In this document: piece after piece, positions 21,931-24,900 of the stretch
Layout: the number at the start of each line of letters is the position of its first letter
How positions within the stretch are numbered: position 1 is the stretch's first letter
NCBI GenBank assembly: GCA_018398765.1
Contig: JAHBMJ010000434.1
Location: 1 to 47,775, forward strand
Origin: Chromera velia
Lineage: Eukaryota
Length of the DNA stretch: 47,775 nucleotides
Direction of reading: 5' to 3'
Notes under the pieces: generated by a model
Told to the model about the DNA's origin: nothing
Databases searched by the model: none
Seen by the model: the letters and a program-made list of their open reading frames with translations, nothing else
Translations under genes and position numbers: made by a program

Positions 21931-24900
21931 ATGGAGACGGCAGGGACTCATCGGGAGATTCCGGCCACTCTGATTGGCAAATGGAAGCTGGGGGACAGAA
22001 TCGGGAAGGGGGCTTTCGGGGAGGTCTTCAAGGTGATGCATGTGGACACTGGGGAGTTCGCGGCTGTCAAGCGCATCGAGTTACACAACATGACCGAAGA
22101 CCAGCTGAACAATATCATGGTGGAAATCAACCTGCTCAAGTCTCTCAATCACCCGAACATCGTCAAGTACCTGGAATCCATCCGGACTGAAGAGCACTTG
22201 AACATTATCCTGGAGTGAGTAAGTTGGAGGATGATGGACAAACTATCAGCCACTGCGCACCGTAGAAGCCGGCACTTCCCGTCCTTTCTTCTGTACCAAA
22301 ATCACTACACCTCTCCCCACTGTCCCCCAACTCCACACCCGTGTTTTGATGTCACACTTTTTAATTGCGAAGTGCCCCCGGTATCTTCTTCTTCAATCCC
22401 TCTCACGCGGCAATGATGCGGTTCGTCTATCGAACGGTTGCGTAATTTTCCTTCCTTGCATTGAAAGGCACCCCACACGTTTTCTCTCGATCTTCCCTTC
22501 TGTCCCGAGGACCGTGTGTGTTCGCTTTTTTCGTTTTCCTCTTCTCGTCCTTCATATGCACTCTCTGCCTGCTCCCGCATCTGTCTCGCAATGCAGATAC
22601 GTCGAGGCCGGGTCGGTTCGCGCTGTGCTGGACAAGTTCGGGGCGTTCCTAGAACCTCTAGCTGCCCACTACACCTTCCAGGTCGGCCCCTTTCGTTTTG
22701 CTTGCAGCAAGGGGACTGTCTCGATGCGCGAGGAAATGTGAATACCCTTCCAAGAATACAACAGAAGTTTTGTGAGTGAGCGATCTCTGTTTCTTCTTAT
22801 GTTGCTCTGTTGTGTGCGTGTGGGTGGATGGAAGGCCGCTCGCTCCATTTGCTCAGCTTCCGCGCAAGCGTTCAGGTGCACGGCGCCAAATAGATAGTCA
22901 GGTAGGCGCCGGGGTCAACACAGCCTCGGCCGGCGCAGAGCGAAGTGATAGGGTGGATCGCTGCCATGGGAGGCGACAAAACCAATGCGCCCCTTCCACA
23001 TCCTGAATCTGTGTATTCACCGCATGACGTGATCTCTCTCTCTGCAGGTCCTGGAAGGTTTGTGTTATCTGCACGGCCAGGGAGTGGTCCACAGAGCATG
23101 CGTTTACTTTCATACAGAATACTTTTCATACAGAATGAAATGCATGAATACCGGAATACAGAATACAGAAAGTAAGCGCATGCAGGTCCTGGAAGGTTTG
23201 TGTTATCTGCACGACCAGGGTGTGGTCCACAGAGACGTGAAGGGAGCGAACATCCTGACAACCAAGTCTGGACGGTGCAAGCTGGCAGACTTCGGTGTGG
23301 CACGAAACTTGGGGGAGACAGAGAAGGCCGAGTCGGTAGTGGGGACGCCCTACTGGATGGCTCCAGAGATCATCACAATGGATGCAATGTCGACTGGTGG
23401 GTGCGTTCACTTTCATACAGAATAAACGCATAACACGCATAAACGGATGGCTCCAGAGATCATCAGAAGGGATGCAATGTCGACTGGTGGGTGGGTGGGT
23501 GGGTGGGCGGGTCGATTTCTTTGCTTTTGCTCGCTTGAATTGGGTACCTCTTTCTTTTATGCATCGGATACAAATACAGTAAATACGGAGGGAGCCTGCA
23601 TGCAGGCGTGTAGGTCGGTCGGCCTGAAGAAGGACGGACACCTCAACTTTTCCTCCAGACCTGCTCACGTAGCTGTGTTGCTCTTGCTCGACGAAACATA
23701 CATCCATGCAGTCGATGAAGGAAGCTTGGTTGACTCGACACCCGTCCTTGCAGTCTACATGAGGAGAGCGACACTGTCTTTAAGGGACGAGAACGGATGA
23801 GAGGGAAAACATGAAAGGAAGACACAAAGTTCGGAAAGGAAAATCTCTGTCTGTCTGCCTGTGTTTGTGTGTGTGTGTGTGTGTGCAGGATGCGACGTGT
23901 GGTCGGTCGGGTGCACGGTGATTGAGATGATTACCCGAACCCCCCCCTACTGGGACCTCCCCCCCATGAATGCCCTCTTCCGCATCGTCCAGGACCCCCT
24001 CCCCCCCCTTCCTCCAGGCATCTCGGTGCATCTCACAGACTTCCTATGCAGGTGAGGAGAGGGAGTAGGAGGGAGGGATACGCGTGTTGCTTTCTCACAA
24101 CGGCAGTGTAGAGTGAAGCCTTGATCTTTCCAGTATGAAGTGTTCAACACTGGTGGTTCGGCATTCGCAATAGGCGTGTGCACAATCTCTGCATGTGCTT
24201 GGTGTATCTATCTGTGAGGAAAGTTGGTCGATCGAAAGTTTGTCAGCCCTCGTTCACACCCTCTGTCTGGATAATTCCGATACGCACCATGCATATGTAT
24301 ACATACAAAAAGAATTCTCTATGAAAGCAAATAAATGCACACACCCTCTGTCTGGATAATTCCGATACGCACCATGCATATGTATACATACAAAAAGAAT
24401 TCTGTATGAAAGCAAATAAATGCACACACCCTCTGTCTGGATAATTCCGATACGCACCAACCACTCATCATAGAAGGGGTTGCCGTTCTTTTCTCTGACT
24501 CCTTCCTGTCCTTTCATATACATGCAGGTGCTTCCAGAAAGACACCGCAATGAGGTCGACGGCAGCCCAGCTGATGGCGCACCCCTGGATCACAGGGCAC
24601 GTTGCGAACGCCTCGTCGGTCCGGAGTCGGCAGGGACGGGGGGAAGTGGCGGCAAGCAGAGGCGGGGGGGAAGGAGAGAGCTCTGCGGTGTTTGTCGAGG
24701 CTGCACGGATGTCTAGTGACGTGGACACGGACGAGCTGGATGGGAATCGTTCGATGGTGTCGGGAATTCAGAGTGAACCGGGGGCAACAGCTGTGGTCGA
24801 GAGTGAGAGTGTGTGGCAGGGGGTGGGGCTGCATGCTGAGAGAGGCGGCATGGTAGACGAAGGGGGAGGAGCGAGGAGGGAAGGGGGGGGAGCGCCTGCT

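What the first reader, a model, noticed from the sequence alone, without database searches (positions are those of the whole stretch)
23043..23493. Insertions into both ends of the kinase catalytic exon are neutralised because the duplication recreates the splice site
Seen: the HRD/DFG/APE exon (23186-23396) is preceded by a ghost copy of its acceptor plus first 49 nt ([16 protein letters not shown]) and followed by a ghost copy of its last 42 nt plus donor ([15 protein letters not shown]), each separated from the exon by the hairpin insert. The ghost copies carry non-synonymous changes relative to the exon copy. Inference: long TSDs let the element land inside coding DNA and end up intronic, leaving decoy splice sites. 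The same mechanism could create new introns or alternative exons.
Basis: partly seen in the sequence, partly recalled or inferred. Interest (0 to 1): 0.7.

Follow-up and report, generated by a model that had tools for sequence, protein, structure and literature searches.

The report
Hairpin inserts that copy splice sites
In the alga Chromera, copies of a small hairpin repeat sit between duplicated 26-54 base stretches of their surroundings, two of them duplicating the splice sites at both ends of a kinase's catalytic exon, and the assembled transcripts are still normal, likely because each insertion copied its landing site and splicing moved to the copy next to the exon.

Summary
The gene is Chromera velia Cvel_17440, a Cdc15/MAP3K-epsilon-like kinase. 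Its catalytic exon (23186-23396) is flanked by 54-nt and 49-nt duplicates that include the acceptor and the donor, and DNA contigs confirm both. The spacers belong to a hairpin repeat family: 10 of 12 loci in the window carry their own site-specific direct repeat (null 2%), so the repeats are very likely insertion footprints. In 3 of 3 RNA-like runs (one study) the main transcript holds a single, exon-allele copy. Corrections: the 'ghosts' keep the old intron context; the ghost acceptor scores better than the used one (11.7 versus -2.6 bits); its use would add 46 residues in frame, so an NMD test is blind there; the 3' insert is a truncated, weak hairpin; no new intron was found. Open: a minor intron-2-retaining contig in 2 of 3 runs, and the RNA may come from another isolate. 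Insertions that duplicate a splice site are known (merle SINE), as are long duplications (Dualen, R9). Their combination in a tiny, abundant hairpin element that hit 4 splice sites of one gene was not found in print. New variant of a known kind.

The parts
21931..42782 (+). Host gene Cvel_17440, Cdc15/MAP3K-epsilon-like kinase with ARM repeats, 36 exons, 1410 aa
   Evidence: P0001 is 100% identical to the exon peptide, named; exon map; Pfam
22597..22681 (+). Exon 2; its donor (22682) opens intron 2
   Evidence: RNA joints
23043..23096 (+). 5' repeat, upstream copy: acceptor with the old pyrimidine tract before it (AG 23046-47) plus 49 ghost exon bases; now intronic
23097..23180 (+). Insert 1, 84 nt: hairpin-family variant with about 16-bp inverted ends and reiterated inner units
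   Evidence: its left end recurs at other loci with other flanks in X2 (records 3, 4, 6)
23181..23234 (+). 5' repeat, downstream copy: the acceptor of the gene model (exon starts 23186), purine-rich upstream
23186..23396 (+). Exon 3, catalytic HRD/DFG/APE exon
23355..23403 (+). 3' repeat, upstream copy: last 42 exon bases plus the donor in use (23397) and 7 intron bases
23404..23444 (+). Insert 2, 41 nt: truncated family copy with one arm; carries an in-frame stop
23445..23493 (+). 3' repeat, downstream copy: ghost exon end and ghost donor (23487) continuing into the old intron
23889..24051 (+). Exon 4, joined to 23396 in the RNA contigs
36431..36552 (+). Family insert 36466-36517 with 35-nt repeat over the acceptor of exon 22 (ghost 36454, used 36541)
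39198..39333 (+). Family insert 39224-39307 with 26-nt repeat over the acceptor of exon 28 (ghost 39204, used 39314)
14713..14885 (.). Family insert outside the gene, 46-nt repeat
24255..24459 (.). Intron 4: three copies of a 35-nt repeat around two one-armed family copies
35017..35176 (.). Intronic family insert, 40-nt repeat
38692..38819 (.). Intronic family insert, 27-nt repeat
40826..40976 (.). Intronic family insert, 37-nt repeat
41741..41847 (.). Intronic family insert; repeat 17 nt exact, about 33 nt by eye with a gap

Best explanation
Two copies of a Chromera hairpin repeat sit between 54- and 49-base duplicates that include the acceptor and the donor of the kinase's catalytic exon, and the assembled transcripts hold one normal copy of the exon; the duplicates likely arose as target duplications when the element inserted near the exon ends, and splicing likely moved to the copy attached to the exon. 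Shown: the duplicates, the family link, the single-copy transcript. Inferred: the original site was cut on the two strands 49-54 bases apart, the element (or a truncated copy) was written in between and fill-in doubled the target. Because the duplicate is long enough to hold the splice-site core and the exon edge, a complete exon with both sites survives and the other copy becomes part of an existing intron and decays. For the enzyme I favour reverse-transcriptase-type priming of a short hairpin RNA at staggered nicks (about 45%), because repeat length varies from 26 to 54, ends are ragged and reiterated, copies are truncated, and the end that lacks the element's TGCA usually meets a target GCN. 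Why the weaker acceptor wins is not shown; definition of the exon from its downstream donor is my guess.
For: 10 of 12 arm-core clusters have a site-specific flanking repeat, against 2% of random positions. DNA contigs tile both duplications, shared part at double depth. X5 has one contig joining exon 2 to the exon copy (504 skipped, GT..AG); X3 and X4 have the junction contig plus an exon contig starting at 23183; all 3 continue from 23396 into exon 4 and none has ghost- or insert-specific contigs, which DNA run X2 does show. The pattern simulated for ghost-acceptor use (extra 167-nt contig, break at 23183/4) is seen in 0 of 3. Homologues keep the exon-copy spacing (HxNI[VI] to HRD 64-66 residues in 92 of 95 with both motifs, none over 69; P0001 64) and favour the exon residues (E/D in 100 of 119 at the D>G site; M in 101 of 117, R in none at the M>R site). 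Same anatomy at acceptors 36541 and 39314. GCN at 7 of 9 ends lacking TGCA (background 5.7%; a pattern picked after looking).
Against: The used acceptor scores -2.6 bits, below all 30 other acceptors (lowest -2.2, median 12.1), the ghost 11.7; likewise 0.7 against 12.0 at 39314 (small matrix from one gene model). A contig retaining intron 2 up to the ghost acceptor is present in 2 of 3 RNA runs (depth 11.8 and 8.1 beside 57 and 53), while introns 1 and 3 have next to no cover. The RNA runs differ from the window at 6 sites, come from one study, and are contigs that drop rare forms. No empty site was seen, no autonomous partner was found (no reverse transcriptase or transposase in 12 long ORFs tested), and no whole genome was available. 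Excess of splice-site overlap is weak: 4 of 9 against 19% expected, p 0.07.
Confidence: 0.7

Rival explanations
1. The old acceptor (23048) is still used, and the 138-nt ghost-plus-insert unit is removed as its own step (recursive splicing at AG|GT, or a new intron nested at the exon edge), giving the same mRNA.
For: The ghost acceptor is followed by GT and scores as a normal acceptor, the regenerated one does not. X4's contigs (420 nt to 23074, then the exon from 23183) are exactly those simulated for RNA that keeps the first part of intron 2 but lacks the 138-nt unit; in X3 the shared contig has depth 10, not about 22. The hairpin brings the unit's ends together.
Against: The donor at 23048 scores 0.1 bits, below all 34 other donors (lowest 3.4); the good inner donor at 23058 has no matching TGCAG-type acceptor in register. 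The ghosts at 36454 and 39204 are not followed by GT. X3's break at 23072/23181 is the one simulated for RNA that holds the insert, and assemblers prune short low-depth loops (my knowledge).
Confidence: 0.12
2. The RNA runs come from an isolate that lacks the 5' insert, so neutralisation is untested; in the reference strain the ghost acceptor may be used to a real degree and give a kinase with 46 extra residues.
For: Six differences between RNA contigs and the window, none in DNA runs X1 and X2. One-copy pattern in X4. Ghost use is in frame and stop-free here and at 36454; shuffled inserts are stop-free in 11.5% and 24% of 2000 trials.
Against: The 418-420 bases of intron-2 contig show no difference from the window, while the 54-nt repeat has 2, which argues that the insertion is older than the split of these haplotypes (inference). 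The public gene model, built with RNA-seq intron hints (PMC4501334), uses 23186. No homologue has such an insertion.
Confidence: 0.12
3. Same outcome, other enzyme: the family is a MITE moved by a DNA transposase (DDE or HUH type) that makes long duplications. (Rival for the mechanism step only.)
For: Terminal inverted arms up to about 28 bp and inner sequence shared within subfamilies. Bacterial IS1202-group elements make 16-28 bp duplications (PMC10132070); Replitron-1 makes variable ones with fuzzy ends (10.1101/2022.12.15.520654). Chromera has 6.3 Mb of non-autonomous class 2 repeats.
Against: Repeat length is not fixed (26-54), ends are ragged, one-armed and reiterated copies occur. Replitrons have direct, not inverted, termini.
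Confidence: 0.25
4. Plain tandem duplications later hit by an unrelated repeat, or an assembly error.
For: Three repeats with spacers that lack the arm core exist in the window (15596, 31711, 33052), two of them over acceptors.
Against: 10 of 12 family loci have their own repeat; two DNA runs of two studies support the structure.
Confidence: 0.03

Closest known systems
Canine merle SINE at the PMEL intron 10 / exon 11 boundary (PMC7349775, passages read)
   Same: Non-autonomous insert at an exon edge with a target duplication (15 bp) that includes the acceptor; normal splicing is possible, and the alternative is an in-frame insertion (52 aa there, 46 aa predicted here).
   Different: tRNA-derived SINE with poly(A); its poly(T) supplies a pyrimidine tract, whereas the Chromera end is purine-rich. 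Duplication three times shorter. One locus, not 4 in one gene.
Introners (PMC9860276, PMC12130899, PMC11282704, PMC7789003; passages read)
   Same: Short inverted-repeat elements whose target duplications or ends supply splice sites, so the mRNA is unchanged; common in aquatic protists, alveolates included.
   Different: Introners make new introns and have 3-9 bp duplications (3-5 nt in Amoebophrya). Here the duplication is 26-54 nt and the insert is absorbed into an existing intron.
Non-LTR elements with long or variable target duplications: Dualen-4b, R9 (10.1101/2022.05.23.493040, passages read); CRE clade (PMC12278014); L1 12-18 bp (PMC11702581)
   Same: Variable duplication length set by the distance between two nicks; truncated copies.
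   Different: Those are kilobase coding elements; no poly(A) tail, reverse transcriptase or partner element is shown here, and both ends carry the same arm in inverted orientation.
Tandem duplication across an intron-exon boundary, potato RdRp gene (PMC4974935, passages read)
   Same: Acceptor plus exon start duplicated.
   Different: No insert between the copies, and a cryptic donor made a new intron; here none is shown.
MITEs; IS1202-group (PMC10132070); Replitron-1
   Same: Inverted ends (MITE), long duplications (IS1202 group), variable duplications with fuzzy ends (Replitron-1).
   Different: None combines 40-85 nt length, inverted arms and 26-54 nt variable duplications, as far as the passages read show.

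Membership tests
Introner | The element (with its duplication) makes up a whole new intron | tested here: not met
   All 9 in-gene loci lie inside longer introns (385-654 nt); 0 of 35 introns is only insert plus repeat. One gene only; a hidden nested removal at 23048-23185 is not excluded.
Introner | Multi-copy family with similar sequence | tested here: met
   12 clusters in 47.8 kb, 19 core hits against 1.1 in shuffles; summed contig depth above 17,000 at 23117-23122 against 33 at unique sites in X1 (not a copy number).
Introner | mRNA unchanged after splicing | tested here: inconclusive
   Main contig normal in 3 of 3 runs; isolate uncertain; minor retained form in 2 of 3.
MITE (TIR DNA transposon derivative) | Terminal inverted repeats, short, non-coding | tested here: met
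   8 of 10 folded copies have z below -4.5; the 3' insert and the intron-4 copy do not.
MITE (TIR DNA transposon derivative) | Short target duplication of fixed length and precise termini | tested here: not met
   26-54 nt, ragged ends.
MITE (TIR DNA transposon derivative) | Cognate transposase element with the same ends | not testable with these tools
   No whole genome; none in 12 ORFs of the window.
SINE / non-LTR retroposon | Variable-length target duplication, truncation | tested here: met
SINE / non-LTR retroposon | Small-RNA-derived head and poly(A) or simple-repeat tail | tested here: not met
   No Rfam match in the window at gathering thresholds; no poly(A) tail, both ends alike.
SINE / non-LTR retroposon | 3' end shared with a LINE or Penelope-like partner | not testable with these tools
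   No genome; Chromera has 5.2 Mb of LINEs.
Replitron (HUH) | Short direct terminal repeats, RG target | tested here: not met
   Termini are inverted; target end is mostly GCN.
Cdc15 / MAP3K-epsilon kinase (host gene) | N-terminal STE-type kinase domain plus C-terminal ARM repeats; best hits named CDC15 or MAP3K epsilon | tested here: met

The most novel reading that the evidence does not exclude
Chromera carries a very abundant, undescribed class of 40-85 nt hairpin element whose long target duplication lets the whole duplicate-plus-insert unit be cut out as its own hidden splicing step at exon edges (old strong acceptor first, then the unit), so the family acts as a cryptic intron-maker that gene annotation cannot see, with in-frame ghost use as a route to new protein loops.
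Probability: 0.15. Interest if true: 0.8.

Novelty: new variant of a known kind. Interest (0 to 1): 0.48.

Why it matters
It shows a route by which a mobile repeat can land inside coding DNA of a conserved catalytic exon and be tolerated without making a new intron: the duplication is long enough to move the exon edge. With about one copy per 4 kb in this window (some tens of thousands genome-wide if the window is typical; an extrapolation), Chromera would offer many natural pairs of identical splice-site cores in different contexts, a direct test of how an alveolate spliceosome chooses a 3' site and of the duplication route to new introns. The inserting enzyme is unidentified.

Tried and rejected
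No whole genome held, so no genome-wide count, empty-site search or partner search. A 25-base arm pattern found 0 matches in metagenome contigs. A 42-residue query across insert 1 found no candidate among proteins of 75-2000 residues (weak evidence). P0001's cluster has 1 member and names the gene model, so it gives no separate transcript evidence. Rfam: 0 matches. Folding 23000-23260 as RNA is not better than shuffles overall (z -0.66), so I draw nothing on masking of the ghost acceptor from it. Contigs cannot give junction ratios; lack of cover on ghost and insert in RNA does not exclude rare use. Reverse-transcriptase skipping between the repeats during library making could also delete the 138-nt unit and keep exon alleles (my inference); rejected for the main form because it would have to be near complete, left open for the minor form. 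I first took 35137 for an exon start; the gene model shows it is intronic. No insert lies wholly in an exon (0 of 9), but that has probability 0.17 by chance. Earlier-findings look-ups by place and by sequence were empty. Paper searches listed no paper describing this family; the library lacks most subscription papers, supplements 13-16 of PMC4501334 were not searched, and the species tables in the supplements of the two introner surveys were not read, so Chromera may be listed there.

Full report
Setting. The exon peptide matches P0001, Chromera velia Cvel_17440, at 100%; other hits are named CDC15 or MAP3K epsilon. Mapping the 1410 residues gives 36 exons over 21931-42782; all 35 introns are GT..AG, 32 of 35 acceptors are TGCAG and most donors GTNNGT. 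No whole genome was held, so family statistics come from this one window.

Observation. The two duplications are there as described: 54 nt at spacing 138 and 49 nt at spacing 90, two mismatches each, far above chance. DNA run X2 shows the contig set expected of a true duplication, with the shared part at about double depth and one contig across the whole 3' structure (simulation); X1, from another study, has matching pieces. Three of four differences change the residue, and homologues side with the exon copy where they inform: E or D in 100 of 119 at the D>G site, M in 101 of 117 and R in none at the M>R site; the T>R site is mostly E (98 of 117). The 3' ghost begins RMAPE, not WMAPE.

The insert family. 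A 13-base arm core (up to 2 mismatches) gives 19 hits in 12 clusters, against 1.1 hits in shuffles; 10 of the 12 clusters have their own flanking direct repeat, against 2% of random positions; the two without are 40487 and 45421. Repeats are 26-54 nt (one is 17 nt exact, about 33 with a gap), inserts 41-84 nt. Eight of 10 folded copies are strong hairpins; insert 2 and the intron-4 copy are not. Ends are ragged: one end tends to keep a terminal TGCA, the other meets target sequence ending GCN (7 of 9 such ends; pattern chosen after inspection). Some copies are one-armed or have reiterated ends. In X2 the left end of insert 1 recurs at other loci with other flanks, and summed contig depth over the arm is several hundred times that of unique DNA (not a copy number). 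There is no Rfam match and no reverse transcriptase or transposase among 12 long ORFs tested. Three more repeats of 22-43 nt have spacers without the core.

Splicing. X5 has one contig joining exon 2 to the exon copy; X3 and X4 have the junction contig (ambiguous on its own) and an exon contig beginning at 23183; all three leave at 23396 for exon 4; none has ghost- or insert-specific contigs. The pattern simulated for use of the ghost acceptor is seen in 0 of 3. So the main transcript is normal. Three points qualify this. First, these are contigs, which drop rare forms. Second, X3 and X4 differ from the window at 6 sites where the DNA runs do not, so they may be another isolate. Third, X3 and X4 hold a minor contig of intron 2 up to the ghost acceptor (depth 11.8 and 8.1 beside 57 and 53), with next to no cover on introns 1 and 3. 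X4's pieces equal those simulated for RNA lacking the 138-nt unit; X3's break equals that for RNA holding it, but at single depth and with no ghost contig. Pruned loop, empty allele and separate removal of the unit all remain possible.

Which copy is the decoy. The ghosts keep the old intron context. With a matrix from the gene's other 30 acceptors the ghost scores 11.7 bits (median 12.1) and the used site -2.6, below the lowest (-2.2); at 39204/39314 the scores are 12.0 and 0.7; at the other three duplicated acceptors the used site is as good or better. The two donors are about equal (7.6 used, 8.4 ghost). Strong-scoring unused TGCAG sites are not rare in these introns (7 of 25 score above 10, three of them ghosts), so local score alone does not decide choice here. 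Use of the ghost acceptor would add 46 residues in frame without a stop; use of the ghost donor would stop at residue 203. The proposed NMD test therefore works only for the donor. At the 5' junction the element's end and the acceptor overlap in TGCA, so the element may supply part of the site; at 35137 an element end plus a target G makes a TGCAG inside an intron.

How general. Four of the 9 in-gene loci with repeats straddle a splice site (acceptors 23186, 36541, 39314; donor 23397), against 19% expected among non-exonic placements (p 0.07; 15% and p 0.03 if the GTCT array counts as target). Adding the two core-less repeats gives 6 of 11 (p 0.009), but their link to the family is not shown. 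No RNA was laid on those other sites; the used copy there is that of the gene model. No intron consists only of repeat plus insert.

Mechanism. Shown: duplicates, family link, normal main transcript. Inferred: staggered cuts 26-54 bases apart, insertion, fill-in; a complete exon survives when one cut is in the intron or at the splice site. I favour reverse-transcriptase-type priming of a hairpin RNA (about 45%) over a DNA transposase (about 25%) or filler capture during repair; none is tested.

Comparison. An insert whose duplication includes an acceptor is known from the merle SINE (PMC7349775, passages). Introners use 3-9 bp duplications and make new introns (PMC9860276, passages; PMC12130899; PMC11282704; PMC7789003); Chromera does not occur in the main text of the first three. 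Long or variable duplications are known from Dualen and R9 LINEs (10.1101/2022.05.23.493040, passages; R9 only as cited there), IS1202-group elements (PMC10132070) and Replitron-1 (10.1101/2022.12.15.520654). Duplication across an exon edge made a new intron in potato (PMC4974935). The genome paper's repeat table (PMC4501334, passages and supplement 11) lists only classes; this family may sit among its 6.3 Mb non-autonomous class 2 or 13.8 Mb unclassified repeats. PMC12278014, PMC12857005 and PMC11702581 were read in passages. Ten paper searches listed no description of the family. The feature works like a merle-type boundary insertion; it fails the introner, MITE and SINE membership tests on one defining feature each.

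Verdict. Real, mostly as read, ordinary at the level of one insertion, unusual as a family trait. New variant of a known kind; interest 0.48.

Noticed in passing
window 22655-23074: Intron 2 up to the ghost acceptor is the only one of introns 1-3 with an RNA contig (2 of 3 runs); it may mark inefficient splicing at the weak regenerated acceptor.
   Followed up: partly
window 21733-21963 and 25190: RNA runs X3 and X4 differ from the window and from both DNA runs at 6 sites, five clustered at the 5' end of the gene.
   Followed up: partly
window 36454-36540: The ghost acceptor of exon 22 would also give an in-frame, stop-free insertion (29 aa); 2 of 5 duplicated acceptors are of this kind.
   Followed up: partly
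window 31711-31875 and 33052-33143: Direct repeats of 43 and 34 nt over the acceptors of exons 11 and 14, with spacers that lack the arm core; a third at 15596-15699 lies outside the gene.
   Followed up: partly
window 24255-24459: Repeat-insert-repeat-insert-repeat (85-nt period, 99% identical), as expected from unequal exchange between long repeats.
   Followed up: no
window 27305-30900: About 3.6 kb of GTCT/GTCA microsatellite fills intron 9, with a recurring purine-rich unit of about 35 nt; many donors of the gene run into GTCT/GTCA repeats.
   Followed up: no
window 1-966 and 974-1740: Two adjacent satellites of 196 and 202 nt period.
   Followed up: no
window 10354-12728 (- strand): ORFs with a Peptidase_S8 match above cut-off and a weak EGF match: probably exons of a subtilase gene.
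   Followed up: no
window 35822-36034: Seven copies of a 30-nt unit, 98% identical, just before the acceptor of exon 21.
   Followed up: no
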